The notes under the pieces: generated by a model | What the model saw: the letters and a program-made list of their open reading frames with translations, nothing else | Database searches by the model: none | Told to the model about the DNA's origin: nothing | Virus record (IMG/VR): IMGVR_UViG_3300023208_000003 | Location: 133,100-197,099 of that record | DNA: 64,000 nt | Direction: 5' to 3' (one strand) | Source: a virus | Program-made: the position numbers and the translations under genes | Shown here: piece by piece, positions 46,546-64,000 of the stretch | How the letters are laid out: each line of letters starts with the position of its first letter | Numbering within the stretch: position 1 is the stretch's first letter

Positions 46546-46546
46546 A

Positions 46547-46959: not shown

Positions 46960-46994
46960 TGCTTTATTCTTTTTCTTTTATTTTCAACTGGCGT

Positions 46995-47465
46995 TTACAC
47001 AGTCGAGAAAATTTCAGGAATTTGGCGCTGGGTATTTACAGATTGATTTTTTAAGCGAATTGGAATTCCTTCTTGAATAGGAATTACTCTTCTGCGCTTA
47101 ACCTTTTTAGGTTGGCTAAAATCAAACTTAAATGGATTTCCTAAAACTCTGGCAACAAAATTAACATCAAAGCTTCTATACATATTTGAAAGCGAGCCTG
47201 TTAATCCAAGCTTTGCGACTTCAATACTAATTGGATAATTATTACTACTTTTGTAAAACCAAATATTTACAATGCGCATGAATTGTTGAATGTCAACATT
47301 TGACTGCGCAGCATAATCAAGAACATAGGCGCCTATTTCAAAAGGTGTAATGTTATCAATTACAACTAAAAAATTTTCTCGCTTGTACTCAATGAGTGAT
47401 AAAGCGAAAAGATTAGTTCTATCCTGCAAAAATTCAATTTGAAGTGGTGGAATTTTCTTTTTCAT
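46995..47465 (-). CDS. Hypothetical protein
   Basis: Intact 156-aa ORF coupled to 47465..47668. Confidence 0.65.
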   Translation of the reverse strand: MKKKIPPLQIEFLQDRTNLFALSLIEYKRENFLVVIDNITPFEIGAYVLDYAAQSNVDIQQFMRIVNIWFYKSSNNYPISIEVAKLGLTGSLSNMYRSFDVNFVARVLGNPFKFDFSQPKKVKRRRVIPIQEGIPIRLKNQSVNTQRQIPEIFSTV

Positions 47466-47668
47466 TATTGACTCACCAATATGCCCGTTTTTTTGTATTC
47501 TCGGGGGCGGCCGGCGTCATCATAAACAATATTACCGTCTATTGTAGCGGCCATGTATTTTCCATGAGGCCCGACGTATAAACTTGGTTTAACTTGCTTA
47601 CCTTCGTGCATTCTAACACGCTGAGTATTTACACTAGCTGATGTGTTTTTCTTTGGTGGACCTGCCAT
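47465..47668 (-). CDS. Hypothetical protein
   Basis: SD AAGGAG on the minus strand. Confidence 0.65.
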   Translation of the reverse strand: MAGPPKKNTSASVNTQRVRMHEGKQVKPSLYVGPHGKYMAATIDGNIVYDDAGRPREYKKTGILVSQ

Positions 47669-47743
47669 ATAATTTCTCCTTATAAATTTATCGTTCTTAT
47701 TAAATAACTTTGTTTAATAAGACGTATTTATTGGAGAAATGAA

Positions 47744-48157
47744 GTGTTTTTTGATTTTTTAAAAGCATTTATAATTCTTTCTTTGATAATTGGAACACAA
47801 AATGGAACATCTTTATTTTCTAAAACTAAAAAGTTTCATAATTTTGATTACTTAACCTTTAACTTTAAACCCATTAACCAAATTGAATTATTTGTAGGAC
47901 CATATTATGCCAATAAAGCACTTACAACTAGCTATAACCAAGTAGGAATTCTAACAGGAATAAATATTGAAATTATTCCAAAACAACTAGATTTAAATTT
48001 GTCATATGTTTCAGGACACACAAATGTTTCAGGTGCGATGACACAGTTATTGTACAGGCCATTTAAAAAAGTACAACTTTACGGAGGAGTTGGTGTTCCT
48101 GAAAAACAAAGCGGAAATGAATTTTTTGGAATTTTTGGTATAAATTACACATTCTAA
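47744..48157 (+). CDS. Beta-strand-rich protein resembling an outer-membrane barrel C-terminus (possibly a fragment)
   Basis: Alternating hydrophobic strands; ends GINYTF. Confidence 0.4.
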   Translation: MFFDFLKAFIILSLIIGTQNGTSLFSKTKKFHNFDYLTFNFKPINQIELFVGPYYANKALTTSYNQVGILTGINIEIIPKQLDLNLSYVSGHTNVSGAMTQLLYRPFKKVQLYGGVGVPEKQSGNEFFGIFGINYTF

Positions 48158-48214
48158 GTTTACAGTGTTAACTATTTGTTGTATAATTTAACAACAGCTA
48201 ACTTTAGGTGAATA

Positions 48215-48676
48215 GTGATGTCTACTTGGTTCAAAACAACCGGTACGTTAATTTACGATCCAAATCGTGGAAAGATGAAAAACCGTACAGTTTGGTGGGC
48301 TGTTGTTAATACCTGTCCAGAAATTGCCAACTACTATCGTTGGTGGCTTGAAAAATTCTGGTGGCATTGGGAAGCCAATGGGTACAAGAGACGTTACTTA
48401 CAACCAGCCTGGGGGTCTCACGTCAGCGTCATTCGCGGCGAGGAGCCTCTTAATAAAGAGCTTTGGGGCAAGTATAATGGCGAGCGAATTATTTTAGAGT
48501 ATCAACACAAAATCGAAGCTACTCGTGAGCTTGGTTTTCGTGACAAGTTTTTTATGGTACGAGTTCGCTCTCATCGCTTGAATGAAATCAGAAAGGAACT
48601 TGGCTTAAAATCTGAAGATGCTAAAGGCCGAGAATTTACTTTCCACATTACAATTGCTAAAACAGAGGAAAATTAA
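48215..48676 (+). CDS. 2H phosphoesterase family protein
   Basis: Two HxS/T motifs: GSHVSVI and FHITIA. Confidence 0.7.
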   Translation: MMSTWFKTTGTLIYDPNRGKMKNRTVWWAVVNTCPEIANYYRWWLEKFWWHWEANGYKRRYLQPAWGSHVSVIRGEEPLNKELWGKYNGERIILEYQHKIEATRELGFRDKFFMVRVRSHRLNEIRKELGLKSEDAKGREFTFHITIAKTEEN

Positions 48677-48894
48677 TGATCAACACACTTTTAGAAGATA
48701 TTCAAGAACTTGCGAACAAAGTTGCACATGGTTATGATATCGATGCTATAGAAAATGGAGAATGGAATGATTTTCAATCAATTGATAGTCATGAATATCA
48801 ATTGCGTCGACTAAAAACTCGTGTTGATGCGGTTCTATCAGCCATTGAAATATATAGGCTTGAAGAGAAAATCACAAACAGTGACCATAGTTAA
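48676..48894 (+). CDS. Hypothetical protein
   Basis: Coupled ORF. Confidence 0.55.
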   Translation: MINTLLEDIQELANKVAHGYDIDAIENGEWNDFQSIDSHEYQLRRLKTRVDAVLSAIEIYRLEEKITNSDHS

Positions 48895-49216
48895 TCTTTA
48901 CGGGCTATTTGTTGATGATACTAGAGATGTTCCTACAGATTACTATAAGATTTGTGGGAACTGGACGGTTGTATATGATTACTTTACTGCAGTAGAGTTT
49001 TTACAGAAATACAAATATGATTTTCTTTCTTTAGATCATGACCTTGCGTCATTCTCTCCTGATGGTAGAGAGTGGACAGGTTATGACATTTGTTTATGGT
49101 TGGCAGAACAAAAAACATTTGGTTTGTGGATACCGCCTATAATAAAAGTTCACTCAGCAAATCCTGTTGGTTCAACCAGAATGCGCGGCGTTATTGAACG
49201 TTATTTAATTTCTTAA
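48881..49216 (+). CDS. Cyclic-phosphate-processing receiver-like domain protein
   Basis: LFVDDTR, LSLDHDL, TGYDICLWL, VHSANPVG. Confidence 0.7.
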   Translation: MTIVNLYGLFVDDTRDVPTDYYKICGNWTVVYDYFTAVEFLQKYKYDFLSLDHDLASFSPDGREWTGYDICLWLAEQKTFGLWIPPIIKVHSANPVGSTRMRGVIERYLIS

Positions 49217-49263
49217 AATTGTACTTTTTTGGTTTTTGATTATAATTATTTCATAACGCAGAG

Positions 49264-49536
49264 GTGACTAAGATGTTTAATTCATATTCTTTATCATGTA
49301 TCGATGACGCTGCCGCCTTTATTGAACGTCTTATTGAAGATGTTCAACATGCAAATAAAGACAATTTACCGAACATCAAAATTGAACGACTGATAAAGCA
49401 GCTCAGCATGCTTCAACAAGTTACAACTGAACTTTCTGACTCGCTTGATCAAATAAAGTATGAAAGAACCATGGCCGAATTCAGGTGCAATAGTGAGCAA
49501 AAGCTTGAGCTATGGAAAGAATCACTAAAAAATTAA
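49264..49536 (+). CDS. Hypothetical protein
   Basis: Follows the promoter at 49219. Confidence 0.55.
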   Translation: MTKMFNSYSLSCIDDAAAFIERLIEDVQHANKDNLPNIKIERLIKQLSMLQQVTTELSDSLDQIKYERTMAEFRCNSEQKLELWKESLKN

Positions 49537-49590
49537 TTTTTTAAAAATGTAATTTTTTGGTTTTTTGATTATAATTATTTCATAAACCAA

Positions 49591-50232
49591 ATGAGTGTTA
49601 CTTCAATGAGTAAAGTCAAATACCCCCGCACCTATCATCTTCCCTGGTCGCTAGGTCGTTCTGATGATGACAAAGTGCTCAAGAATGTTGAACATTTTGA
49701 AGGTCAACATGTCATCATAACAGAAAAAATGGATGGTGAGAACACTTCACTTTATACTAATGGCAATCTACATGCCAGGTCACTTGACAGTGCAAATCAC
49801 CCTTCTCGTGATTGGGTAAAGCGTTGGTGGCAAGAACGTTGTTATGACCTTCCTGAAGGTTGGAGAGTTTGTGGAGAAAACTTATTTGCTCAACACTCGA
49901 TTAGATATGAGAACTTGGTAATACCATTTCGTGGGTTTTCAATTTGGAATGAAAAAAATTTTTGTTTAAGCTGGGGTGAAACACAAGAATGGTTTTCACT
50001 TCTCGAAATTCCGTCTGTACATATTCTTTGGCAAGGTGAATTTGACGAAGACCAAATTCGTCAAATTCAATATCGACTGGATACAACAACACAGGAAGGT
50101 TACGTGGTCAGAATGAAAAAGGGGTTTCACTATAAGGATTTTGCTCAGTCAGTAGCTAAGTTTGTTCGTGCTAGTCACGTTCAAACTGATACGCACTGGA
50201 TGCATTCTGAAATCGTGCCAAATGGGCTCTAA
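49591..50232 (+). CDS. ATP-dependent RNA ligase
   Basis: KYPRTYHLPWS, TEKMDGEN, HARS, GENLFA, EGYVVR, KFVR. Confidence 0.85.
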   Translation: MSVTSMSKVKYPRTYHLPWSLGRSDDDKVLKNVEHFEGQHVIITEKMDGENTSLYTNGNLHARSLDSANHPSRDWVKRWWQERCYDLPEGWRVCGENLFAQHSIRYENLVIPFRGFSIWNEKNFCLSWGETQEWFSLLEIPSVHILWQGEFDEDQIRQIQYRLDTTTQEGYVVRMKKGFHYKDFAQSVAKFVRASHVQTDTHWMHSEIVPNGL

Positions 50233-50233
50233 A

Positions 50234-50476
50234 ATGGAAATTCAATTCAAAGATTTTTTGAACAAAACAGTTCAAATTATAATGAAGAAAACCAACGCCA
50301 AATATGAAGGGTTTCTTAATGGTATTAGACATGATAAAATACACCTGACCCACTTGGTAATTTATAACTGGGCGGGTGGTCCTATAGTGTCTGGTGGAGT
50401 CAATCAAAATGTAAGATGGTTTAACAAAACTTCAATAGCGTCAATTAAAGAAATTTCAGCTTTTGGCAATGAATAG
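50234..50476 (+). CDS. Hypothetical protein (Sm/LSm-like pattern)
   Basis: KTVQII...YEGFLNGI...IHLT beta pattern. Confidence 0.45.
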   Translation: MEIQFKDFLNKTVQIIMKKTNAKYEGFLNGIRHDKIHLTHLVIYNWAGGPIVSGGVNQNVRWFNKTSIASIKEISAFGNE

Positions 50477-50975
50477 ATTAATCCAAACTTTTAATTCGCT
50501 TAAAGAACGTGGAAGAATAAACTTCCCGGTTAAAGTATGGCTTGATCTTGAAGAAACAGTTATTGATGAATGGGGAAATTATGCCTTATTGTTTCATAGT
50601 TGTGAACTAATTGCTGAATTTTTGAACGAGTTTGGTGTAAATGATATTGGTATTTGGTCATTTGCAATTTATAATGACGCTGATATTGAAAAATTTAAAG
50701 TTGAATTAATGCCGCGACTAGAAACAATATTAAATGTGTCAGTTTCGGATATTATTTCAGTTAGACAAATGATTAAACAAATAGGAGATTTTCAAAAACT
50801 AAGATTTCAGGATGAATGTGATTTTATTTCAGTCTATGGGAAGCAAAAATCATTTATTGATTCATGTATTTTTTCTCAAAAGTGGACTACTTGTGTATTA
50901 ATAGATGATGTAGTTCGCACGAGCTACATTTATGATACCGAGTCAGACGTAGAAATTATCACATTGAGAATTTAA
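50463..50975 (+). CDS. HAD-like protein
   Basis: WLDLEETVID, IWSFA, VLIDD. Confidence 0.55.
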   Translation: MAMNRLIQTFNSLKERGRINFPVKVWLDLEETVIDEWGNYALLFHSCELIAEFLNEFGVNDIGIWSFAIYNDADIEKFKVELMPRLETILNVSVSDIISVRQMIKQIGDFQKLRFQDECDFISVYGKQKSFIDSCIFSQKWTTCVLIDDVVRTSYIYDTESDVEIITLRI

Positions 50976-51124
50976 AAATGAACACAGAAAACAGAGAAAA
51001 TCTGATTATGCTTGAACTGAGCGAATCAGTATGGTCCGCAATGGTAAAATACGTGCGGATTATTGTTCTTTTTCATATATCAAATTTAATAGCACCGATC
51101 GAACACGATTAACAGGAGTAGTAA

Positions 51125-51388
51125 ATGCTGCGCGTCTTTTTGGGATTTTTAATTTTATTTCCATGGCTAATTATTAGCGGGTATTGGTTGTTTGGAAACG
51201 GAAACTTTGATGCGTTCCAATGTAAATTTTCTTTATTTTTTATTTGGCTTTCGCCAATAATAAGTTTCATTATAGCATGTGTAGCTTATTCACTTGGGCG
51301 CACGATTGAAATTATAGAAAATGCTAAAACGCTGCATAGTATTGCGCAAACTGGACTAAAAGTAATGAAAGATAGAATAGTAAAATAA
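51125..51388 (+). CDS. Small membrane protein
   Basis: Two TM segments; SD AGGAG. Confidence 0.6.
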   Translation: MLRVFLGFLILFPWLIISGYWLFGNGNFDAFQCKFSLFFIWLSPIISFIIACVAYSLGRTIEIIENAKTLHSIAQTGLKVMKDRIVK

Positions 51389-51446
51389 GTGTATTTTTGA
51401 TATCTTTTGCTTATAATAATACTATAATTAAATAGTGGAACATTTT

Positions 51447-53351
51447 ATGTCAGCTATAATTCAGCAAATTATTAACAGTCCTGAATCTTTTGAAAAGGAT
51501 GAAATTCTTAGCGCACTCATTCAGCTTGATGAAATTTACTATAACGGTGATGAGCCATTAATCTCAGACGCTGAATATGATGAGCTTCATGCTTTTGCTG
51601 AATCAAGGTGGCCAAATGACGGGTACTTTATGGAAACCGGCAGTATGGTTAGAGGTGTCAAAGTAAAACACCCGAACCCTGTTGGTGGTTTAAATCAAAT
51701 CAATCGTGACGGTCTTAACCGCTGGCTAGCAGGAAAAGACGCAGATTTATACATCTTGTCTGAAAAGCTTGATGGATCATCTGGAACTCTTACCTACGTT
51801 AACGGCAAGCTAAAAGTCGCATTAACGCGGGGTGACGGCGTTTATGGTTCAGATTGCACCCGCCACGCACTTTCAATGCGTTCAATTCCTATTTCGCTAG
51901 GTAGTGGAATTGAATCACCTTCATTCGAAGTTCGTGGCGAATTTATTATCCGTAAATGTGATGAAGAAAAAGTTAAGGAAATTTTGAAGCAGCACAATGG
52001 GCGTGAGTATAAAAATTTGCGCGGTATTGCAAACGGGCTAATCAATGCAAAAGAAATTCCTGATGAAATTTTCCAATATTTGAAATTTGTTGCATATGGG
52101 CTCTCATTACCACAATATGATTACTTTGCGCACCTTAATATGCTTGACAGCTACGGATTTCAAACTCCACGCTGGATGCAGGTAAATTCAATTAACGAAA
52201 CACAGTTGACTAGTGTGCTTGTTGATTGGCGTGATTCTTCAAATTACGAAATAGACGGTATTGTTGTTCAGATCAGTAATGCAAAAAGTCGTGAAAAGCT
52301 TGGTTTGAAAAACAAGCGACCGCAGTATGGTTTTAAGTGGAAGGTTGCTGATGAAAGCAATGAGGCTGTCACCACAGTCATTGGTATTGAATGGAAAGCG
52401 TCTCAATATAGTTACCTAATACCAACAGTCTTGCTTGAACCAGTCGACCTTTGCGGAGCAACCATCAAACGAGCTGCTGGATTCAATGCTGCTTATATCA
52501 AAAATAATGGAGTTGGAGTTGGTGCTAAAGTTCGCATTACCCGCTCTGGAGACGTAATTCCTTACATTCTCAAGGTTGAAGAAGGTGTTGAGCCTTTGAT
52601 GCCTGAAGTTGCATATCATTGGTCAAAAACTGGAATTGATGCAATTGCTGATATCGAAAGTGATGCGTCAAAATTATTGAAGTTAAAGCGGTTTTTTAAC
52701 AAGCTTGAAATTGATCAAGTACAAGATGCAACTCTTTCCGCGCTAGTAGAAAATAAAGTCGATTCACTTGAAGCGATCATAAGTCTATCTCGCAAAGAAT
52801 GGAATGATTTGATTGGGCGCAACGGTGAAAAAGCTTACGATAGCCTTCATGCTAAGCTTCAGGATGTTTATCTTTGGGAATTGATGGGAGCTTACCCATC
52901 ATTTGGTAGAGGATTTGGTGAACGAAGAGCAAAAGTTCTTTGCGAAGCTTTCGGGACTTTAGTGCTTGAAGCCACAGAAGCTGATATCCTCACGCTGAAG
53001 GGGTTTAGTGAAATAACCGCACAAACTTATCTTGATGGTATTGACGAATTCAAAGAATTTTTTGATTGGCTTAATCACGTCAATTTCATAAAGCTGAAAA
53101 CCGCCGTCAAAAAAGTGATTACGACCGGTAAGCTGGTTGGTAAAAGTTTCGTATTTACCGGCTTTAGAAGTGATGAATTAACTGCTCAAATTGAAGCTCT
53201 CGGCGGAATAGTTCAAGACGGTATTAAAAAGGATACCACACACCTCGTAATGAAGGACACGACAAAATCTTCTGGAAAATCAAAGAAGGCTGCTGAACAA
53301 GGAATAATCGTAATTGATCGTGATTCCTTGATTGAAATGTTAATCGTGTAA
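51447..53351 (+). CDS. ligA: NAD-dependent DNA ligase
   Basis: YYNG...ISDAEYD, EKLDG, TRGDG, EVRGE, DGIVV, RSGDVIP, C-terminal BRCT (FVFTG). Confidence 0.95.
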   Translation: MSAIIQQIINSPESFEKDEILSALIQLDEIYYNGDEPLISDAEYDELHAFAESRWPNDGYFMETGSMVRGVKVKHPNPVGGLNQINRDGLNRWLAGKDADLYILSEKLDGSSGTLTYVNGKLKVALTRGDGVYGSDCTRHALSMRSIPISLGSGIESPSFEVRGEFIIRKCDEEKVKEILKQHNGREYKNLRGIANGLINAKEIPDEIFQYLKFVAYGLSLPQYDYFAHLNMLDSYGFQTPRWMQVNSINETQLTSVLVDWRDSSNYEIDGIVVQISNAKSREKLGLKNKRPQYGFKWKVADESNEAVTTVIGIEWKASQYSYLIPTVLLEPVDLCGATIKRAAGFNAAYIKNNGVGVGAKVRITRSGDVIPYILKVEEGVEPLMPEVAYHWSKTGIDAIADIESDASKLLKLKRFFNKLEIDQVQDATLSALVENKVDSLEAIISLSRKEWNDLIGRNGEKAYDSLHAKLQDVYLWELMGAYPSFGRGFGERRAKVLCEAFGTLVLEATEADILTLKGFSEITAQTYLDGIDEFKEFFDWLNHVNFIKLKTAVKKVITTGKLVGKSFVFTGFRSDELTAQIEALGGIVQDGIKKDTTHLVMKDTTKSSGKSKKAAEQGIIVIDRDSLIEMLIV

Positions 53352-53376
53352 TGTCGAAGAACAATAAATAAATTAT

Positions 53377-53571
53377 ATGTGTAACCCAATAGAAGAAACA
53401 AAACTTGAAAAATTAAATATTGCTCTCATAGAATATTTTACATGGCTTGGAACTTTATCTTTTGAAGAAAAACAGAAAAATTTTTTAAAGCTTCATGAAA
53501 TTTTACAACATCGGATTTCAGTATTTGTCCAGCTCAATTCAAGCCCAACTGTTGAAATCTTAAAAGAATAG
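53377..53571 (+). CDS. Hypothetical protein
   Basis: Short ORF. Confidence 0.45.
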   Translation: MCNPIEETKLEKLNIALIEYFTWLGTLSFEEKQKNFLKLHEILQHRISVFVQLNSSPTVEILKE

Positions 53572-53765
53572 TGTAAAAATAAAACTAAATGTGTTATAAT
53601 GTCAGCTATAATTTATCAATTTGGGATTTACTACAGCAAAAAGCAATTAAAATTATTAGAAGCAGAAGCAGCACAGGCAGTAATTGAAAATTCATTTTTT
53701 ACTGTTTTAAAGTTAAAATCGATAATTAAGCAGTCAGTGTTACTTCAACAAAAAAGAATGTCGAG

Positions 53766-54536
53766 ATGATTAAAATTAAATATCTGAGATTAGTTTCTGA
53801 TCTACACCTTGAATTTAAAAATTTCACTGTTCCTCAGTTAGATACTGATAGTGAAACCCTTCTTATCTTAGCTGGTGACATTTATGTCGGTACGCTAGGA
53901 GTCGCCTTTGTACGTGAGCACGCCTCACGGTTTGGTGCTGTTTTTTATGTTTTGGGAAATCACGAATTTTACCGTAATCAAATAGTAGGTCTGGTGGACA
54001 AGATAAAAGAAAAAGTTGCTGATTTACCAAATGTTTTTGTCACTACTAATGGTGAAACTGTAAAATTTGATGGTGTTACAGTAATTGGTACGACACTTTG
54101 GGCCGATGCCAATAAAAATGATCCTGTAACAAAATTTCAATTAAGTCAAAGAATGAATGATTTTTACCTTATAAAAAACATAACACGGACATTCACTCCT
54201 GACGATATGGTAGAGCTGCATAAAAAACAGCTTGAATTCATCAAATCACAGCTTTTTGAAAATAAAGATTCTAAGCAGCCGGTAGTAGTGGTTACACATC
54301 ACTTGCCGTCTAGTTTTAGTACTCCACCAGAGTTTCGAGCAGATTTTCATATGAATGGAGGATATCGATCTGAGCTTAATGAGTTAATTGATCACTATAA
54401 ACCAACTTACTGGCTTCACGGCCACACACATGATTCATGTAATTATGAAATGAGCAACACAAAAGTTGTTTGTAATCCACGAGGGTATAACGATTCAAAT
54501 GCCCTGTTTGATGCTAATTTGCTGTTGGAATTATGA
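53766..54536 (+). CDS. Metallophosphoesterase (calcineurin-like)
   Basis: SDLHLE, AGDI, GNHEF, GTTLW, THHLP, HGHTH. Confidence 0.88.
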   Translation: MIKIKYLRLVSDLHLEFKNFTVPQLDTDSETLLILAGDIYVGTLGVAFVREHASRFGAVFYVLGNHEFYRNQIVGLVDKIKEKVADLPNVFVTTNGETVKFDGVTVIGTTLWADANKNDPVTKFQLSQRMNDFYLIKNITRTFTPDDMVELHKKQLEFIKSQLFENKDSKQPVVVVTHHLPSSFSTPPEFRADFHMNGGYRSELNELIDHYKPTYWLHGHTHDSCNYEMSNTKVVCNPRGYNDSNALFDANLLLEL

Positions 54537-56939: not shown

Positions 56940-57159
56940 TTACTTCAACAGCGCCGATGTGTTAATAACTGTTTCAGGTTTCGGTTATTAAACGACGTGG
57001 TTGTAAGTTAGGAAACCTGATTTTTATTTCATTATATGAAAATATTAGTCAGACATTGGAACGAATATTACACGCAATATCATATTCCAAAATATCAACG
57101 ATGGTTCTGGCGAGTAATTTGTATAATAATTGACAATGTTTTCTTTAGAAGACATTACT

Positions 57160-57430
57160 GATTTTATCGTTGTGTAAACAGGAAGTTTTGAAAGACTGAC
57201 TGAAAGGGGTCGCGGACGCGGGGGCAGAACCCGCCCAGTCCACATAGCTTAAAATAAATTTGGGCTGGACAAAGTTTCGACGTGGTCATTAGTAGGAATG
57301 TTTACAACGGGATAGTCGACTGCCCTAAGCAGCGAAAAACTTATAAATGCAAGCAATGACGCATTTTATGGAGATTATGCTCTCGCAGCATAATCCACCG
57401 GGGCTGTTCAGCCTAGCAACAGAATGAACC
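57160..57430 (+). ncRNA. ssrA: Circularly permuted two-piece tmRNA (outer ends approximate)
   Basis: Acceptor piece: T-arm GCGGG-GGCAGAA-CCCGC then CCAGTCC-A (57218-57242). A 19-nt spacer follows. Coding piece starts GGGCTGG (57262), pairing with a G3.U70 wobble. Tag ORF 57349-57393 = ASNDAFYGDYALAA*. Confidence 0.88.
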
Positions 57431-57431
57431 G

Positions 57432-57461
57432 AATGGGGAAGATTTAATCTTCCCCATTTTT
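57432..57461 (+). terminator. Intrinsic terminator after tmRNA
   Basis: AATGGGGAAGAT-TTA-ATCTTCCCCATT followed by T's. Confidence 0.8.
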
Positions 57462-57499
57462 GTGTGTACATCTCCAATTTTTCTTAGTATAATGCTCAT

Positions 57500-58078
57500 A
57501 TGGATAAATTTAAACTTGAAATCAGTGAGCAGGAAGCCAAGCGTTTCTTAAAACCGGTCTGTCCTTCGCTCGACGAAAAAGATCATAAGCTCGCGCAAGC
57601 TCGTTACGCTTATGAAACAATCTGGGAAATTCTTCATAATTTTACTCTTTACGTTCGTCGCAAAGAAGGATTAAAAGAAGATTCTTATTGGGTTAATCAG
57701 TCTGATGAAAAAATAACTGAATATGCTCTTAACGCTCTCAAGGAAGTTGATGATGCGTGGGATGAAAAAGATGCTGATGAATGGTGGAATGAATTCATCA
57801 ATCTTGAGCATTTCAATGAATACATTAAAGGCGCGCTAACAGAAGAACACTGTGGAGACTGTACAGCAGTTCCAGCAACGTGTTCTCGCTGCTACGCTGA
57901 AACAATGTACAAACTGCCCTACACTGCTTGGTGGAACAAACATTTAGGTCACGCACTTACAGTGACTGCTAACGCAGGATATAGGGAACAACTTAAAAAA
58001 TACAATCCAAAAAAACCCCTACGAAGACGAATTACGCTAGCTGTTAAGGAATTTTGGAGAATACTTATGGAAAAATAA
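57500..58078 (+). CDS. Hypothetical protein with Cys cluster
   Basis: EHCGDCTAVPATCSRC. Confidence 0.7.
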   Translation: MDKFKLEISEQEAKRFLKPVCPSLDEKDHKLAQARYAYETIWEILHNFTLYVRRKEGLKEDSYWVNQSDEKITEYALNALKEVDDAWDEKDADEWWNEFINLEHFNEYIKGALTEEHCGDCTAVPATCSRCYAETMYKLPYTAWWNKHLGHALTVTANAGYREQLKKYNPKKPLRRRITLAVKEFWRILMEK

Positions 58079-58079
58079 A

Positions 58080-58250
58080 ATGTCACGTGCAGCTTTGATA
58101 TTTACACTAGTAATTTTAGCAATTGTTGTTGGTCCAATTTTAATCATTTGGTCACTGAACACTCTTTTCAGTTTAACAATTCCATTTACCCCTCAAACGT
58201 GGGTCGCAACAGCAATTTTAACATCAGTCGTTCGAGCAACTTGTAAATAA
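58080..58250 (+). CDS. Small membrane protein (not in ORF track)
   Basis: 56-codon hydrophobic ORF filling the gap exactly. Confidence 0.55.
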   Translation: MSRAALIFTLVILAIVVGPILIIWSLNTLFSLTIPFTPQTWVATAILTSVVRATCK

Positions 58251-58251
58251 A

Positions 58252-58668
58252 ATGAACAAATTCAAAAGCCGTAAATATCATTTGATTAAGGCAATATATG
58301 AATGGTGTCTCGGTAGTGAGTTAACTCCATATATTGTAGTTGATTTACAAATTAATCCAATTTTAATTCCACCTAAATTAAAAAACGCTGAAGAAGCAAT
58401 TTTTAACTTAGGATTGGCGGCTTGTAAAAATGTTGACATTACGTCAAACTGTGTTCATTTTTCGACACGTTTTCAAGGCGTTCACTTTGATATGCTAATT
58501 CCATTAGAGTCTGTAATTGCGATTTTTCCGCACGAGCTTGGACCAAGAGAAGGAATAACATTTGGCGTTGAAAAAGTTCCTGATGAAGAAATTAGCGTGG
58601 AACCTGAACCACCGGAACCTGAACCACCAAAAGGCAAAAAGCGCGGTCACCTAACAGTCGTCAAATGA
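58252..58668 (+). CDS. sspB: ClpXP adaptor SspB (beta/gamma-proteobacterial type)
   Basis: YHLIKAIYEWC...TPYIVV, FNLG, FSTRFQG, IPLESVIAIF; Pro-rich linker; C-terminal RGHLTVVK ClpX-binding motif. Confidence 0.85.
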   Translation: MNKFKSRKYHLIKAIYEWCLGSELTPYIVVDLQINPILIPPKLKNAEEAIFNLGLAACKNVDITSNCVHFSTRFQGVHFDMLIPLESVIAIFPHELGPREGITFGVEKVPDEEISVEPEPPEPEPPKGKKRGHLTVVK

Positions 58669-59219
58669 ACAGAATAATTATACTTGATATTGACGGTGTT
58701 CTAATTTCAGGTAGAGCTGCTCTGCTTGACTACAATCTTGGAGGTTCAGGAACCTTCAAGTGTTTTGACCCTGTTGCGGTCGCTCTGTTAAATCACGCGC
58801 TTGAATTTACTTACGCTAAGCTTGTAATTGCGTCTTCATGGCGCCATACTTTTTCACGTAATCAATTTATCGATATTTTTAAAATCAACGGTTTAAATCC
58901 AACGATATTGGAAGGTGATCAGTGGAAAACGCCAGTTGCTGAAACGCGTGGCGAAGAAATTAAAAAATGGCTTAAGTTAAATTGCGGCCAATATTCATAT
59001 TTTTGTTACGTAGACGACGCGTTTGTTGAACCTGATATCGTAGAAGAATACGTAGGTTATGTCAAAGTTGATTATAACGCCGGACTTTCTCTAGAAAATT
59101 TCTTTGAAATTATGAAATTTTTAGGGCATTCAAAACAAGAAACTAATCAACTTTTAGTTGAAAAAAGAAAAACACTTTTAAGTAAAGTTCATGAAATCAA
59201 CAGAATGGTACGTAGCTAA
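58665..59219 (+). CDS. HAD phosphatase, RNA-repair (Swiss-army-knife) type
   Basis: IILDIDGVL, LVIASSWR, RGEEIKKWL, YVDD. Confidence 0.8.
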   Translation: MNRIIILDIDGVLISGRAALLDYNLGGSGTFKCFDPVAVALLNHALEFTYAKLVIASSWRHTFSRNQFIDIFKINGLNPTILEGDQWKTPVAETRGEEIKKWLKLNCGQYSYFCYVDDAFVEPDIVEEYVGYVKVDYNAGLSLENFFEIMKFLGHSKQETNQLLVEKRKTLLSKVHEINRMVRS

Positions 59220-61667: not shown

Positions 61668-61742
61668 AGGTTCGTAGCTCAGAGGCAGAGCGTTGCCCTT
61701 ACAAGGCAAATGTCGGGATTTCGAAATTCCCCGAACCTACCA
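61668..61742 (+). tRNA. tRNA-Val(TAC)
   Basis: Full cloverleaf; TTGCC-CT-TAC-AA-GGCAA; encoded CCA. Confidence 0.92.
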
Positions 61743-61745
61743 TTT

Positions 61746-61817
61746 AATCGTCGGGTCGGTTGGAGAGGCGACATCTTTACAAGGTGTACAAACCGGGTTC
61801 GATTCCCGGGACGGTTA
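61746..61817 (+). tRNA. tRNA-Val(TAC), degenerate D-arm
   Basis: AATCGTC/GACGGTT acceptor, ACATC-TT-TAC-AA-GGTGT, canonical T-arm; no CCA. Confidence 0.6.
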
Positions 61818-61824
61818 CGGTTAC

Positions 61825-61953
61825 TGTGACTTGATGTATTGGTTAGTACGCGAAAAAAGTCGTCTGCGCCTCTTGTTTCGAAAGAAACCGTTTGTGGATG
61901 GTTATCTCACGCATAAGGGCGAAGACCAGGTTCGAATCCTGAGGTCACAACCA
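61825..61953 (+). tRNA. tRNA-like gene, anticodon CAT, with about 50 nt of insertions
   Basis: TGTGACT/GGTCACA-A-CCA and T-loop TTCGAAT; anticodon stem halves CGCCT and GGGCG are separated by a 38-nt insert. Confidence 0.5.
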
Positions 61954-61956
61954 ATT

Positions 61957-62048
61957 GGAGAAATGACAGAGTGGACTATCGTGCTACCCTGGAAAGGTAG
62001 AGGACCTGAAATATGGTTCCGTGGGTTCGAATCCCACTTTCTCCGCCA
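61957..62048 (+). tRNA. tRNA-Ser(GGA)
   Basis: Long variable arm, G73, CCA. Confidence 0.92.
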
Positions 62049-62237
62049 AATTTATTGTACATTTTGGATTTTTGTGTTAGAATTTGTTTTTGAATTTTCT
62101 GGAGCTGGCGACCCGTAAGGACTCCTTCGATAAGGAGGAAGCTCCATCGCCATCTATGAAAGAAAGCGGTTGAGGAGTTGTTGTGTTAACATCCGACAAC
62201 AAGACAACTGGAGGATCCGTAACCTCCACCTAAATTT

Positions 62238-62328
62238 GGGTTTCGAAAGTAAGGATGGGTGGTCCCGTCAGCCGGCTGTAACCCGGTTCCCTCGTGGCAA
62301 GCAGTTCGATTCTAGCCGAGACCCACCA
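62238..62328 (+). tRNA. Non-canonical tRNA-Tyr(GTA)-like gene
   Basis: 8-bp acceptor GGGTTTCG/CGAGACCC-A-CCA; 6-bp D stem with TGGT loop; CT-GTA-AC loop; bulged T-stem. Confidence 0.6.
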
Positions 62329-62332
62329 ATTT

Positions 62333-62417
62333 GGATAAGCGGGGACGTGGGAGAGTCTCACCTGACTGTAAATCAGGCGCTTCGGCTGAGTAGGTTCGAA
62401 TCCTACCTTATCCACCA
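62333..62417 (+). tRNA. tRNA-Tyr(GTA)
   Basis: CCTGA-CT-GTA-AA-TCAGG; type II variable arm; CCA. Confidence 0.9.
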
Positions 62418-62424
62418 AATTTTT

Positions 62425-62500
62425 ACTCTCGTAGCCCAATTGGCAGAGGCGGAAGGTTTAAGCCCTTCTTTATGTGTGGGTTCGAATCCGACCGAGAGTA
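62425..62500 (+). tRNA. tRNA-Leu(TAA), short variable region
   Basis: GAAGG-TT-TAA-GC-CCTTC; no CCA. Confidence 0.8.
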
Positions 62501-62502
62501 CA

Positions 62503-62574
62503 GTGAAACCGAAAGAAAAATGGTTATCTTACTTTTACTGAGAAAAACCCCGTTTTTCGCTTATTTTGTTTCAC
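62503..62574 (+). ncRNA. Inter-tRNA structured element, copy A
   Basis: GTGAAAC/GTTTCAC outer stem; AAAAATGG/CCGTTTTT inner stem; TTATCT core. Confidence 0.6.
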
Positions 62575-62579
62575 ACTTT

Positions 62580-62656
62580 GCGGGTATAGCTCAATTGGCC
62601 AGAGCGCCGTCCTTCCAAGTCGGAGGTTGTCGGTTCGAGACCGTCTACCCGCTCCA
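62580..62656 (+). tRNA. tRNA-Gly(TCC)
   Basis: Canonical cloverleaf, U73, CCA. Confidence 0.92.
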
Positions 62657-62722
62657 AAATAAAGTTGTACTTTTTGATTTTTGTGTTATAATTATTCCAT
62701 CAAATCAAAATGATGAAAAAGG

Positions 62723-62899
62723 ATGAACGCTCAACAACTGTTAGACACGCTTCTTAGTCTTCAAGCTCAAGGAGCTAATTTACAAATGTTAGATGTAATG
62801 ACTCTTCAATCAAGGACTGATGAAGATTACAATTCATGGATGGAAGAAAGCTGGCCTGGTAATGTTGAAGTTAACGGCTCTGAACTGAGGATTTACTAA
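62723..62899 (+). CDS. Small hypothetical protein (58 aa)
   Basis: Follows the early promoter 62665-62692; not in the ORF track. Confidence 0.45.
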   Translation: MNAQQLLDTLLSLQAQGANLQMLDVMTLQSRTDEDYNSWMEESWPGNVEVNGSELRIY

Positions 62900-62900
62900 A

Positions 62901-63047
62901 ATGATTTGTTATAATTCGATGGCTGAAGCTTGGATAGATGATGAAGATGATTCATTTTACGTGGACATGACACCTGAAGGTGGAGAACCTGATTTTGAGT
63001 TTGAAACTCAGGAGGAGTTTTGGAACTGGTACAACAGTTCAGATTAA
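62901..63047 (+). CDS. Small acidic hypothetical protein (48 aa)
   Basis: Starts 1 nt after the previous stop. Confidence 0.45.
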   Translation: MICYNSMAEAWIDDEDDSFYVDMTPEGGEPDFEFETQEEFWNWYNSSD

Positions 63048-63053
63048 AAAATT

Positions 63054-63128
63054 GCCGTCGTAGCCCAATTGGCAGAGGCGCTACGCTAAGAACGTAGTTA
63101 TGTAGGAGTTCAAATCTCCTCGACGGTA
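63054..63128 (+). tRNA. tRNA-Leu(AAG), short variable region
   Basis: CTACG-CT-AAG-AA-CGTAG; D-arm identical to the Leu(TAA) gene; no CCA. Confidence 0.8.
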
Positions 63129-63131
63129 CAA

Positions 63132-63197
63132 GTGAAACCGCTTTTTAACGATTATCTTATTGGAAAGAAAAAACTCGTTAAATCTTTTTTGTTTCAC
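63132..63197 (+). ncRNA. Inter-tRNA structured element, copy B
   Basis: GTGAAAC/GTTTCAC; TTTAACGA/TCGTTAAA; TTATCT. Confidence 0.6.
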
Positions 63198-63202
63198 GAT
63201 TT

Positions 63203-63285
63203 TCCGGAGTAGGAAAACGGTAACCCCAGGGCACTGTTAATGCTCCGCCGAAAGGCAACTGTCCGTTCGAGTCGGACCTCCGGAG
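63203..63285 (+). tRNA. tRNA with Asn anticodon (GTT) and a long variable arm
   Basis: TCCGGAG/CTCCGGA-G; GGGCA-CT-GTT-AA-TGCTC; GCC-GAAA-GGC extra arm. Confidence 0.8.
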
Positions 63286-63295
63286 CAAAAATTAT

Positions 63296-63368
63296 TGGCT
63301 TGTAGCTCAGTCGGTAGAGCGGGTGATTGTTAATCACTAGGTCGGGGGTTCGAACCCCTCCGGGCCAG
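63296..63368 (+). tRNA. tRNA-Asn(GTT)
   Basis: Canonical cloverleaf, G73. Confidence 0.9.
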
Positions 63369-63674
63369 CATGGGACGAAAGAACATTTAAGGCGAGCGTC
63401 ATACGTTATTTGATGTCTCAACTTAAAAATAGGTTATCGTAAGGTAACCGTCGGTGACGTAGATCATCGTGCAGCGTAAGCAAACTGGTAAGCTATGAAG
63501 CAACCCAGCAAACACTAAAACCGGTCCTGGTAAATATCGAGCGCTCTCGAGGCAGTGGTTTGGTAAAGGCTGGAATTGTTAAGAAGGATGAGGTGGGAGT
63601 TGATCACCCACTAATTTCTAAGTAGTCGGCTCCTGTAAAGTTTGCACATCTACATTAATTTTAGAGAGGTTGAA

Positions 63675-63836
63675 ATGTTTGTAAGAGGTTCAATTGTTCG
63701 TTCTGTAAATGGTGGTCCTGAAATGGAAGTTTTAGGAGTTTCCAATGATGGAAAGATTATGTGTAGGACTTTTGATGAAACATTTCAAGAGTGGTACATC
63801 ATTCAAATTTCTCAAGAATGGTTGATGTACGCGTAA
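63675..63836 (+). CDS. Small hypothetical protein (YodC-like pattern)
   Basis: SD GAGGT before ATG; GSIVRSVNGGPEMEV. Confidence 0.6.
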   Translation: MFVRGSIVRSVNGGPEMEVLGVSNDGKIMCRTFDETFQEWYIIQISQEWLMYA

Positions 63837-63842
63837 GGTTTA

Positions 63843-63908
63843 AATCAAACCGCTTGGTAACGGTTATCTTTTGGGTAGACTAGTCCGTTTCCTACTTTTT
63901 GTTTGATT
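63843..63908 (+). ncRNA. Inter-tRNA structured element, copy C
   Basis: AATCAAAC/GTTTGATT (compensatory changes relative to A and B); AACGG/CCGTT; TTATCT. Confidence 0.6.
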
Positions 63909-63912
63909 ATTT

Positions 63913-63986
63913 CTCCGAGTGGGTCAATTTGGTCGACCACTTGCTTTGGGAGCAAGCTTATGCAGGTTCAAATCCTGTCTCGGAGA
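63913..63986 (+). tRNA. tRNA-Pro(TGG)
   Basis: CTCCGAG/CTCGGAG-A; CTTGC-TT-TGG-GA-GCAAG. Confidence 0.9.
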
Positions 63987-64000
63987 CAAAAATTTTCGGG

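What the first reader, a model, noticed from the sequence alone, without database searches (positions are those of the whole stretch)
57160..58668. tmRNA plus its own SspB adaptor: a candidate phage-controlled tag-and-degrade module
Seen: an SspB homolog with an intact C-terminal ClpX-docking motif (RGHLTVVK) starts about 0.8 kb after the tmRNA. The phage tag keeps the ClpX degron (YALAA) but differs in the N-terminal SspB-binding part (AASNDAFY versus AANDENY in E. coli). Inference: a co-evolved tag/adaptor pair lets the phage prioritise or redirect host ClpXP. SspB also delivers non-ssrA substrates such as RseA, so it could retarget host regulators or defence proteins. I know of no described phage tmRNA-SspB pairing. 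No smpB is visible in this window.
Basis: partly seen in the sequence, partly recalled or inferred. Interest (0 to 1): 0.8.

Follow-up and report, generated by a model that had tools for sequence, protein, structure and literature searches.

The report
Phage tmRNA beside phage SspB adaptor
A giant freshwater phage carries both a ribosome-rescue RNA (tmRNA) that writes a "destroy-me" tag and, 0.77 kb downstream, a copy of SspB, the bacterial adaptor that reads such tags; each gene is known from other phages, but no other phage surveyed here had both, and whether they work as a pair is untested.

Summary
Both genes are real. The tmRNA (57153-57484, +) is two-piece (permuted): Rfam tmRNA_permuted 97 bits, G3:U70 pair, tag AASNDAFYGDYALAA. 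The 138-aa SspB (58252-58668, +) matches Pfam at 6e-14, folds like E. coli/H. influenzae SspB (TM 0.80-0.89) and ends in the ClpX-docking motif LTVVK.

The contig is a lake-water jumbo myovirus, about 55% complete. It holds no SmpB, ClpX or ClpP, so the host must supply them.

The co-evolved-pair reading is only partly supported.
- A strong terminator and a promoter-like site separate the tmRNA from the ORF192-ORF56-SspB-HAD string.
- The tag belongs to a common viral tag family: 14 residues is the modal length, and the nearest tag is 10/14 identical.
- Pairing is not conserved. None of 11 described phages, 6 viral SspB contigs or 50 viral tmRNA contigs had both genes.

The pair is a hybrid: an alphaproteobacterial-type tmRNA with a beta/gamma-type adaptor. 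In 15 of 28 sampled alphaproteobacteria, sspB directly follows ssrA, so this gene order is normal in cells but new for a phage. The tag keeps the N-D-x-x-Y spacing that beta/gamma SspB reads, which is rare (2/74) among viral alpha-type tags.

Most likely the phage supplements the host tag-and-degrade pathway. An earlier unchecked scan note reports a similar pair in another phage.

The parts
57153..57484 (+). Two-piece (circularly permuted) tmRNA gene. Parts in order: acceptor piece with T-arm 57218-57234 and 3' acceptor strand 57235-57241; short intervening segment, about 57243-57261; coding piece starting with GGGCUGG at 57262-57268.
   Evidence: ARAGORN permuted tmRNA. Rfam RF04321 97.1 bits and RF01849 67.9 bits. 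The G3:U70 pair was read from the sequence.
57349..57393 (+). Tag reading frame. The resume codon GCA is followed by 13 codons and UAA. It encodes ASNDAFYGDYALAA.
   Evidence: The register matches the Rfam consensus AUAAAU-GCA.
57431..57459 (+). Intrinsic-terminator-like hairpin (13 pairs) followed by a T run. It ends the tmRNA transcription unit.
   Evidence: sequence.
57465..57493 (+). Sigma-70-like promoter (TGTACA, 17 nt, TATAAT; 10 of 12 matches), 7 nt before the ATG of ORF192.
   Evidence: This is a consensus match only; function is not shown.
57500..58078 (+). ORF192, an orphan protein of unknown function and the first gene after the tmRNA.
   Evidence: No Pfam or meaningful PHROG hit. 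Poor Atlas model. Not a diverged SspB.
58080..58250 (+). ORF56, a small hydrophobic protein of unknown function.
58252..58668 (+). SspB homologue of the beta/gamma-proteobacterial type, 138 aa. The folded domain spans 1-105. A Pro/Glu-rich disordered linker follows, and the C-terminus carries the ClpX-docking motif GHLTVVK.
   Evidence: Pfam PF04386 at 6.1e-14. phrog_8945 at 1.5e-14. PDB phmmer 1ou9 at 1.2e-17. Model pLDDT 88. Foldseek TM 0.80-0.89 to SspB structures. Scores 127.9 bits on a beta/gamma HMM against 4.2 bits on an alpha HMM.
58665..59219 (+). HAD_SAK_2 phosphatase, an RNA-repair-associated family. Its ATG overlaps the SspB stop codon (ATGA).
   Evidence: Pfam PF18143 at 2.4e-18. 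Overlap read from the ORF table.
61668..63987 (+). Array of 10 tRNA genes running to the end of the contig. It provides the translation and RNA-maintenance context.

Best explanation
The phage supplies two parts of one host pathway.

Its own two-piece tmRNA is charged with Ala. With host SmpB it rescues stalled ribosomes and appends AASNDAFYGDYALAA to the unfinished protein. Its own SspB dimer then binds the N-terminal N-D-x-x-Y part of such tags, from phage and probably also host tmRNA, and tethers the tagged protein to the N-domain of host ClpX through its LTVVK tail. This speeds degradation by host ClpXP.

The expected gains are faster ribosome recycling and faster clearance and amino-acid recovery from truncated proteins. 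That would matter during an infection in which mRNAs and tRNAs are being cut and the translation load is high. The genes sit in an island of RNA-repair genes and tRNAs.

The two genes are separate transcription units. They were assembled in this lineage from different sources: an alphaproteobacterial-type tmRNA, common in aquatic phages, and an adaptor captured from a betaproteobacterial-type host lineage. They are not a conserved, co-inherited module.

Shown here: both genes are intact and of these types, they are adjacent, and SmpB, ClpX and ClpP are absent from the 197 kb in hand. Inferred: expression, tag binding, ClpX docking, and any benefit to the phage.
For: - tmRNA hallmarks are intact.
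- SspB fold and conserved core are kept: W18, T25, P26, P40, N52, A57, F70, R73, F74, G76, P84, E95, G101, F104, L134, V137 and K138.
- The tail L-x-V-V-K is conserved across cellular and phage homologues.
- The tag keeps N-D-x-x-Y and the C-terminal ALAA. SspB binds the first seven tag residues, and ClpX binds ALAA (PMC9963277; PMC8512704).
- Three extra residues lie between the two sites. Inserting residues there strengthens the ternary complex in E. coli (PMC9963277), and the engineered tag AANDENYSENYALAA is also 15 residues long.
- N-D-x-x-Y occurs in only 2 of 74 other viral alpha-type tags. This fits adaptation of the tag to a beta/gamma-type adaptor.
- tmRNA close to SspB is rare elsewhere: 1 of 167 SspB loci.
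- The pathway logic is shown by cells. In 15 of 28 sampled alphaproteobacteria, sspB directly follows ssrA.
- Neighbours are RNA-repair genes and tRNAs.
- The same arrangement is found in many lake samples.
Against: - No relative keeps both genes: 0 of 11 described phages, 0 of 6 viral SspB contigs and 0 of 50 viral tmRNA contigs. Each gene evidently works without a phage-encoded partner, and there is no comparative signal of linkage.
- A terminator and a promoter-like site lie between them.
- Two unexplained ORFs lie between them.
- SspB differs from the family consensus at the near-invariant Tyr (H10) and Asp (G21) of the N-terminal helix.
- The tag has Ser where E. coli has A2, so binding may be weaker than assumed.
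- The adjacency could simply reflect the clustering of accessory genes in one island.
- The host is unknown.
Confidence: 0.5

Rival explanations
1. The two are independent accessory genes that happen to lie in the same variable island. The tmRNA serves mainly for ribosome rescue. The phage SspB acts mainly on host-tagged proteins or on other clients, such as an RseA-like anti-sigma factor, as proposed for phage pf16. There is no specific relation between this tag and this adaptor.
For: - The genes occur singly in all relatives examined.
- They are separate transcription units.
- The SspB tree shows several independent captures by phages from host lineages: FLC4-3B groups with Ralstonia/Cupriavidus and pf16 with gammaproteobacteria.
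- The tag is typical of viral alpha-type tmRNAs that have no SspB.
- pf16 carries SspB without a tmRNA (PMC5587285).
Against: - SspB's best-known client is the ssrA tag, and this tag keeps the N-D-x-x-Y and ALAA determinants. Some functional overlap is therefore hard to avoid once both are expressed.
- tmRNA near SspB is rare in the background (1 of 167 loci).
- N-D-x-x-Y is rare among viral alpha-type tags (2 of 74).
Confidence: 0.28
2. This is an orthogonal, co-evolved pair. The phage SspB prefers the phage tag (Ser at position 3, Phe-Tyr, longer spacer). The host SspB reads it poorly, or the phage SspB ignores host tags. The phage would then control a private degradation channel through host ClpXP.
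For: - The tag starts A-S, which is unique among the 74 viral and 30 alphaproteobacterial tags read here.
- The SspB differs from consensus at several otherwise conserved positions of the N-terminal helix: Y9, H10, K13, G21 and S22. It also differs at A49, F51, T72 and P93, and these four are shared with its only close relative P0002.
- The hybrid origin of the tmRNA and the adaptor would have required mutual fitting.
Against: - There is no covariation to analyse, because only one phage species carries the pair and all its copies are identical.
- The main determinants N, D, Y and LAA are the canonical ones, so host SspB and ClpX should also read the tag.
- The positions where this SspB differs were not mapped onto the binding groove. 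I could not obtain contact lists or coordinates.
Confidence: 0.12
3. The pair works by saturating or blocking ClpXP. Mass tagging plus an extra adaptor would flood ClpXP (proteolytic queueing). Alternatively the phage SspB occupies the ClpX N-domains. Either way, other ClpXP substrates useful to the phage would be stabilised, or host regulation would be disturbed.
For: Queueing at ClpXP-SspB is a known effect in E. coli (abstract of PMC12013620). SspB also blocks ClpAP recognition of tagged proteins (PMC9963277).
Against: There is no direct evidence. An intact groove together with an intact tail points to a productive adaptor rather than an inhibitor.
Confidence: 0.07
4. The region is host DNA or a prophage-host junction. 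ssrA is a classical integration site, and in alphaproteobacteria sspB follows it.
For: One 'UNVERIFIED Bacteriophage sp.' record, MT836065.1, carries a permuted tmRNA directly followed by an alpha-type SspB. It is probably such a junction.
Against: - In the window the SspB is of the beta/gamma type while the tmRNA is of the alpha type, which matches no cellular arrangement seen here.
- GC content is like the rest of the phage: SspB 0.37 against 0.35 for the window.
- Phage genes lie on both sides, with terminase, tail, ligase and RNA-repair genes upstream and the tRNA array downstream.
- The same context recurs on at least 8 contigs.
Confidence: 0.03

Closest known systems
Alphaproteobacterial ssrA-sspB gene pair (two-piece tmRNA directly followed by the SspB-alpha adaptor; Caulobacter is the studied case)
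   Same: Both have a two-piece tmRNA of the alpha type, with an SspB-family adaptor gene downstream on the same strand. Tag length is similar and the tags start with A-x-N-D or A-N-D-N. Here, SspB was the next ORF in 15 of 28 sampled genomes.
   Different: The phage adaptor is of the beta/gamma type: 127.9 against 4.2 bits, 12-13% identity to the Caulobacter and Agrobacterium structures, and tail LTVVK instead of VVSLDxFRKK. It lies 767 nt away, behind a terminator, a promoter-like site and two ORFs, rather than 0-160 nt away. It is carried by a virus.
E. coli / H. influenzae SspB with the ssrA tag AANDENYALAA and ClpXP (PDB 1OX9, 1OU8, 8ET3)
   Same: The fold is the same (TM 0.80-0.89, 28-31% identity). 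The phage protein has a disordered linker and a C-terminal L-x-V-V-K ClpX-docking motif. The tag has N-D-x-x-Y followed by ALAA.
   Different: The tag is 15 rather than 11 residues. It has Ser in place of A2, Phe in place of N6, and three extra residues (GDY) before ALAA, much like the engineered AANDENYSENYALAA. The phage protein has His at the near-invariant Tyr of helix 1. The tmRNA is two-piece, whereas the bacteria with the closest SspBs have one-piece tmRNAs with the tag ANDxNYALAA.
Phage-encoded two-piece tmRNAs (OM43 phage Melnitz, pelagimyophages, XacN1, RsoM2USA, Xoo-sp13, Phosso)
   Same: All are permuted tmRNAs on large myoviruses, sometimes in phages whose hosts have one-piece tmRNA. 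None has a phage SmpB. Tags are of the form ANDN...(D)YALAA (PMC9004378).
   Different: None of those examined carries SspB. The Melnitz tmRNA is reported to lie behind a glutamine riboswitch, whereas no riboswitch reached the Rfam threshold in this window.
Phage-encoded SspB (Pseudomonas phage pf16 gp18; Ralstonia jumbo phages FLC4-3B and FLC1-1B; Xanthomonas phage LucasX; Erwinia phage pEa_SNUABM_54; PHROG 8945)
   Same: These are SspB-family proteins on large phages. pf16 and FLC4-3B also end in L-x-V-V-K.
   Different: None has a tmRNA (PMC5587285). The window's SspB is a separate capture. Its only sister is P0002, on a small metagenome contig.

Membership tests
Two-piece (permuted) tmRNA, Rfam RF04321 / RF01849 | Covariance-model score above the curated gathering score | tested here: met
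   RF04321 scores 97.1 bits against a cut-off of 47. RF01849 scores 67.9 bits against 50.
Two-piece (permuted) tmRNA, Rfam RF04321 / RF01849 | tRNA-like domain: a 7-bp acceptor stem with the G3:U70 alanine identity pair, plus a T-arm | tested here: met
   GGGCUGG (57262-57268) pairs with CCAGUCC (57235-57241), including G57264:U57239. The T-arm is at 57218-57234.
Two-piece (permuted) tmRNA, Rfam RF04321 / RF01849 | Permuted gene order: acceptor piece, then intervening segment, then coding piece | tested here: met
   ARAGORN flags the gene as permuted, and the full-length CM alignment shows this order.
Two-piece (permuted) tmRNA, Rfam RF04321 / RF01849 | Tag frame that starts at an Ala resume codon and ends in a hydrophobic ...LAA degron plus a stop codon | tested here: met
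   GCA at 57349 through to GCA-GCA-UAA at 57385-57393. The tag is ASNDAFYGDYALAA.
Two-piece (permuted) tmRNA, Rfam RF04321 / RF01849 | Encoded 3' CCA after the discriminator base | tested here: not met
   The sequence after the acceptor strand reads A-C-A-U (57242-57245), so CCA would have to be completed after processing. Many tRNA and tmRNA genes do not encode CCA, so this does not exclude function.
Two-piece (permuted) tmRNA, Rfam RF04321 / RF01849 | Expression, cleavage into two pieces, charging with Ala and SmpB binding | not testable with these tools
   No RNA run was listed for this stretch. There is no SmpB in the contig.
SspB (Pfam PF04386), beta/gamma-proteobacterial type | Family profile match above the cut-off | tested here: met
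   52.8 bits against a cut-off of 27, E 6.1e-14. A beta/gamma HMM built without this sequence scores 127.9 bits.
SspB (Pfam PF04386), beta/gamma-proteobacterial type | SspB substrate-binding fold | tested here: met
   The model has pLDDT 88. Foldseek gives TM 0.80-0.89 to 1ou9, 1ou8, 1ox9 and 8et3.
SspB (Pfam PF04386), beta/gamma-proteobacterial type | Flexible linker plus a C-terminal ClpX N-domain docking motif L-x-V-V-K | tested here: met
   Residues 106-138 have pLDDT of about 70 and are Pro/Glu-rich. The protein ends in GHLTVVK, and L134, V137 and K138 are conserved across homologues.
SspB (Pfam PF04386), beta/gamma-proteobacterial type | Homodimer through the N-terminal helix | not tested
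SspB (Pfam PF04386), beta/gamma-proteobacterial type | Binds the ssrA tag and stimulates ClpXP degradation | not testable with these tools
   The tag is too short for the complex tool, and I could not obtain contact residues from papers that were not held.
Alphaproteobacterial ssrA-sspB(alpha) gene pair | An SspB gene is the next gene downstream of the two-piece ssrA on the same strand | tested here: not met
   Order and strand are the same, but a terminator, a promoter-like site and two ORFs (767 nt) lie between them. In the sampled cells the gap ranges from -35 to +162 nt.
Alphaproteobacterial ssrA-sspB(alpha) gene pair | The adaptor is of the alpha type (tail VVSLDxFRKK) | tested here: not met
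   The alpha HMM scores 4.2 bits. The tail is LTVVK. Identity to 2qaz, 2qas and 2nys is 12-13%.

The most novel reading that the evidence does not exclude
This is a phage-private, orthogonal tag-and-adaptor pair built as a hybrid. An alpha-type tmRNA scaffold would have had its tag reshaped (A-S-N-D-A-F-Y, longer spacer) to fit a captured and modified beta/gamma-type SspB. During infection the phage, not the host, would then decide which stalled-translation products, and possibly which other clients, reach host ClpXP.
Probability: 0.12. Interest if true: 0.8.

Novelty: new variant of a known kind. Interest (0 to 1): 0.45.

Why it matters
Phage tmRNAs occur in about 2% of phage genomes (PMC9004378), and nobody knows what they do for the phage. 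Phage SspB genes are equally unexplained.

A phage that carries both, in a form that can be expressed and assayed with standard ClpXP tools, offers a direct test. The question is whether phage tmRNAs are used for protein degradation (the tag matters) or only for ribosome rescue (the tag is irrelevant).

The hybrid make-up, an alpha-type RNA with a beta/gamma-type adaptor, also gives a natural experiment on how tag and adaptor specificities are matched. If the pair proved orthogonal to E. coli SspB/ssrA, it could serve as a second inducible-degradation system.

If the two genes are merely neighbours, this is an ordinary case of accessory genes collecting in a tRNA and RNA-repair island.

Tried and rejected
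- Close relatives in public phage records: megablast and blastn of the region and of the tmRNA found nothing.
- Word-based protein search found only the protein itself.
- The closest SspB relative, P0002 (49% identity), lies on a 2.35-kb contig whose DNA could not be fetched. It has a 380-nt gene-free gap just upstream of SspB, which could hold a tmRNA. This could not be checked.
- A metagenome scan for the P0002/window SspB lineage returned only cellular-type SspBs at 42% identity or less.
- ORF192, which sits where sspB sits in alphaproteobacteria, is not a diverged SspB: no HMM hit and hhalign probability 0. It also has no Pfam, PHROG or Atlas lead.
- No ClpP, ClpX zinc-finger, RF-1/ArfB or SmpB was found in the 197 kb.
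- No excess of tag-like motifs (ANDN, A[AS]ND, ND..Y, terminal AA or LAA) was found in 218 ORFs of the contig compared with shuffles. There is therefore no sign of built-in SspB clients.
- No RNA holder was listed for the stretch, and read laying was not used.
- Papers with the SspB-tag contact details and the Caulobacter adaptor work were not held. Statements on tag positions 1-4 and 7, and on the discovery of SspB-alpha, rest on my memory.
- The first genome-contig query with the 15-sequence alignment failed for lack of a conserved stretch and was repeated with 7 sequences.
- Host: only a weak hint of a betaproteobacterial, possibly Methylophilaceae-like, donor of SspB. Long branches make this unsafe.
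Full report
**1. What is there**

The window is the last 64 kb of a 197-kb viral contig that CheckV rates about 55% complete. GC is 35% throughout. The contig carries terminase, tail, helicase, ribonucleotide reductase and ligase genes.

The C-terminal half of the large terminase is closest to jumbo myoviruses:
- RsoM2USA (42% identity), XacN1, Xoo-sp13 and the Stenotrophomonas phages RAS14 and CM1;
- more distantly Atu_ph07, Phosso and CBB.

The stretch under study occurs letter for letter on at least 8 contigs from ENA, JGI and Logan assemblies. It also occurs in lake-water metagenome runs from 11 studies, 3 of which may be the source of this DNA. This is therefore a real, recurrent freshwater phage.

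**2. The tmRNA**

ARAGORN calls a permuted tmRNA at 57153-57484 with tag ASNDAFYGDYALAA. Rfam's tmRNA_permuted model scores 97.1 bits (cut-off 47) and alpha_tmRNA scores 67.9 bits (cut-off 50).

Reading the sequence gives these parts:
- T-arm GCGGG-GGCAGAA-CCCGC at 57218-57234. The T-loop is of the alphaproteobacterial kind, not the canonical UUCGAAU.
- 3' acceptor strand CCAGUCC at 57235-57241, then discriminator A, then CAU. CCA is therefore not fully encoded.
- About 16-19 nt of intervening sequence.
- 5' acceptor strand GGGCUGG at 57262-57268. It pairs with the 3' strand and includes the G3:U70 wobble that alanyl-tRNA synthetase reads.
- Resume codon GCA at 57349, in the consensus context AUAAAU-GCA, and stop codon at 57391-57393.

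A 13-pair hairpin followed by a T run (57431-57459) ends the gene.

**3. The adaptor**

The ORF at 58252-58668 (138 aa) matches several references:

| Reference | Result |
|---|---|
| Pfam SspB | E 6.1e-14 |
| PHROG 8945 'SspB-like' | E 1.5e-14 |
| H. influenzae SspB structure (sequence search) | E 1e-17 |
| E. coli SspB structure (sequence search) | E 8e-17 |

An AlphaFold model built on 57 homologues has pLDDT 88. It shows a folded domain at residues 1-105 and a lower-confidence Pro/Glu-rich tail.

Foldseek and profile comparisons place it clearly in the beta/gamma type:

| Comparison | beta/gamma type | alpha type |
|---|---|---|
| Foldseek TM-score | 0.80-0.89 | 0.63-0.70 |
| Sequence identity to structures | 28-31% | 12-13% (Caulobacter, Agrobacterium) |
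| HMM score (beta/gamma HMM built without this protein or its sister; alpha HMM from 15 adaptors) | 127.9 bits | 4.2 bits |

The C-terminus GHLTVVK fits the L-x-V-V-K docking motif shared by all beta/gamma homologues aligned. The alpha type ends in VVSLDxFRKK.

Nearly all highly conserved positions are kept. The exceptions are H10 for Tyr and G21 for Asp in the N-terminal helix. That helix is the dimer interface, from my knowledge of the SspB structures. The designed-heterodimer entry 1ZSZ differs from the wild type in this helix.

In a tree, the protein pairs with P0002 (SH-aLRT 91), its only close relative at 49% identity, found on a 2.35-kb contig of small genes. The pair sits inside a mainly betaproteobacterial cluster (support 87) and weakly near Methylophilaceae. 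Long branches make the exact position unsafe.

Other phage SspBs sit elsewhere. FLC4-3B groups with the Ralstonia/Cupriavidus lineage of its host, and pf16 groups among gammaproteobacteria. Phages have therefore captured SspB several times.

**4. Layout**

The order on the plus strand is:
1. tmRNA
2. terminator (57431-57459)
3. promoter-like site TGTACA-17-TATAAT (57465-57493)
4. ORF192
5. ORF56
6. SspB
7. a HAD_SAK_2 phosphatase whose ATG overlaps the SspB stop codon

The tmRNA and SspB are therefore neighbours in separate transcription units.

Upstream lie a 2H-SAK protein, a cREC_REC protein, an RNA ligase, an NAD-dependent DNA ligase and a metallophosphatase. Ten tRNA genes follow 3 kb downstream. 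The setting is an RNA-repair and translation-maintenance island.

The 197 kb hold no SmpB, ClpP, ClpX zinc-finger or RF-1/ArfB domain. Four complete relatives that carry a tmRNA also lack SmpB. Host SmpB and ClpXP must therefore be used.

**5. Is the pairing conserved?**

It is not.

| Set examined | Has SspB | Has permuted tmRNA | Has both |
|---|---|---|---|
| 10 described phages (relatives by terminase, or hits to the SspB) | FLC4-3B, LucasX, pf16 | XacN1 (two copies), Phosso, RsoM2USA, Xoo-sp13 | 0 |
| Erwinia phage pEa_SNUABM_54 | yes | no | 0 |
| 6 further viral contigs with SspB | all | none | 0 |
| 50 viral contigs with an ARAGORN-called permuted tmRNA (from a pattern scan for the alpha-type T-arm) | none, by Pfam or PHROG model | all | 0 |

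A tblastn search found no SspB in any of the 119 tmRNA-pattern loci. Most of those contigs are fragments and only 4 are at least 90% complete, so this shows absence near the tmRNA rather than absence from the genomes.

As background, only 1 of 167 SspB loci from genomes, metagenomes and viral contigs had any tmRNA within the fetched flanks.

The literature agrees:
- The pf16 paper reported the first phage SspB, looked for a tmRNA and found none (PMC5587285).
- The Melnitz paper counted tmRNAs in 402 of 18,146 phage genomes, 53 of them two-piece, and does not mention SspB (PMC9004378).

An unchecked first-stage note of this scan (e1-5834327) reports another phage with a tmRNA and an SspB-like gene 3.5 kb apart. 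Another note (e1-1957990) says that diverged SspB-like genes are common in jumbo phages. My surveys used canonical SspB profiles and would miss very diverged forms.

**6. The same gene order is normal in cells**

Another scan note (e1-4251371) prompted me to sample 151 Pseudomonadota genomes with the alpha_tmRNA model and to take the 30 best loci.

In 15 of the 28 loci that had a downstream ORF to test, the ORF directly after the two-piece ssrA, on the same strand, is an SspB. The best Pfam E-value is 2e-50, and the gaps range from -35 to +162 nt.

One 'UNVERIFIED Bacteriophage sp.' record, MT836065.1, shows the same alpha-type pair. It is probably a host or prophage-junction fragment.

The phage stretch copies this order but with a beta/gamma-type adaptor, and ORF192 in the 'sspB position' is unrelated to SspB. 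No viral tmRNA contig carries an alpha-type SspB. Capture of an alpha ssrA-sspB unit followed by replacement of the adaptor is therefore not supported. Separate acquisition is the simpler reading.

**7. The tag**

*Compared with other tags.* The 74 viral alpha-type tags are mostly 14 residues long (34 of 74). Fifty end in ALAA and nine in DYALAA. The nearest, ANDNAYIGDYALAA, matches the window's tag at 10 of 14 positions. The 'extra' length and the GDYALAA end are therefore family traits, not adaptations to this SspB.

*What is unusual is the head.* The tag starts A-S-N-D-A-F-Y instead of A-N-D-N-[FY]. This has two effects:
- It gives a start (A-S) seen in none of the 74 viral or 30 alphaproteobacterial tags.
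- It creates the spacing N-D-x-x-Y of the beta/gamma tag ANDENYALAA. Only 2 of the 74 other viral tags have this spacing.

The bacteria with the closest SspBs have one-piece tmRNAs with tags ANDENYALAA, ANDDNYALAA and ANDANYALAA.

*Known recognition rules.* SspB binds the first seven tag residues and ClpX binds ALAA (PMC9963277; PMC8512704). From memory of Flynn et al. 2001, which I could not open, the positions that matter for SspB are 1-4 and 7. Aligned on N-D-x-x-Y, the phage tag keeps four of these five and has Ser for A2.

*Spacing.* The tag has three more residues between the Tyr and ALAA than the E. coli tag. In E. coli the two binding sites are packed so tightly that inserting residues there strengthens the ternary complex (PMC9963277). 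The engineered 15-residue tag AANDENYSENYALAA is degraded at least as well as the wild type. The tag should therefore be readable by a beta/gamma-type SspB together with ClpX.

The rarity of N-D-x-x-Y is a weak, after-the-fact hint that the head of the tag has adapted to beta/gamma-type adaptors. Such adaptors could be the host's as much as the phage's.

**8. Mechanism and rivals**

*Best reading (about 0.5).* The phage adds capacity at two steps of the host trans-translation and ClpXP pathway, and the two products meet on the same substrates. The genes were assembled in this lineage from different sources.

*Rivals:*
- Independent accessory genes with no specific relation (0.28).
- A truly orthogonal, co-evolved pair (0.12).
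- Saturation or blocking of ClpXP (0.07).
- Host DNA or a junction artefact (0.03).

There is no excess of tag-like motifs in the phage's own proteins, so built-in clients are not indicated. Binding, docking, dimerisation and expression remain untested. The complex predictor was unavailable and no RNA run was listed.

**9. Verdict**

Each part is a new member of a known kind. Their combination on a phage, and the mix of an alpha-type RNA with a beta/gamma-type adaptor, is a new variant of the known cellular ssrA-sspB-ClpXP system. The evidence comes from one phage species and includes no comparative support for linkage. Interest is moderate (0.45).

Noticed in passing
L018:2840-3253 (Xanthomonas phage XacN1, AP018399.1): A GOLLD RNA (Rfam RF02032, 227 bits) lies about 1 kb downstream of the phage's permuted tmRNA. 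The region is inside the terminal repeat, so it is present twice.
   Followed up: no
L018:317-392 and 400-475 (XacN1): Two tandem tRNAs with anticodon CUA, which ARAGORN labels 'Pyl', lie 1 kb upstream of the tmRNA. They are candidate amber-suppressor tRNAs.
   Followed up: no
Phage records MG752970.1, AP018399.1, MN047793.1 and PV764938.1 (loci L018-L022): Permuted tmRNAs occur in jumbo phages of Ralstonia and Xanthomonas. Those of XacN1 and RsoM2USA score as beta-type. The betaproteobacterial and gammaproteobacterial genomes sampled here have one-piece tmRNAs. ARAGORN reads an implausible tag (DRRVEQSTLFHAPG) for RsoM2USA and calls no tmRNA in Phosso or Xoo-sp13, although all three score well with Rfam.
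   Followed up: partly
window 45511-54536 and 58665-59219: An RNA-end-processing set surrounds the finding: 2H-SAK, cREC_REC, an RNA ligase, an NAD-dependent DNA ligase, a metallophosphatase and HAD_SAK_2. The HAD gene overlaps the SspB stop codon (ATGA), which suggests translational coupling.
   Followed up: partly
L355 / L357 (MT836065.1, 'UNVERIFIED Bacteriophage sp.', human faecal sample): This 13-kb record holds a permuted tmRNA (135 bits) directly followed by an alpha-type SspB. That is the cellular alphaproteobacterial arrangement, so the record is probably bacterial DNA or a prophage junction.
   Followed up: partly
L282:3286-3654 (metagenome contig Ga0210038_1003252): This was the only one of 167 SspB loci with a tmRNA in the flanks. 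It is a one-piece tmRNA (tag ANDEKYALAA) about 3 kb from SspB.
   Followed up: no
L165, L182 and others among L122-L240 (viral contigs): Some viral permuted tmRNAs encode very long tags of 22-31 residues, for example one ending ...NEDFALAA after 31 residues. Some tags contain an internal second ANDN-like motif.
   Followed up: no
P0002 contig (Logan run, 2350 bp; DNA not retrievable): The only close relative of the window's SspB has a 380-nt gene-free gap immediately upstream of it, large enough for a tmRNA gene.
   Followed up: no
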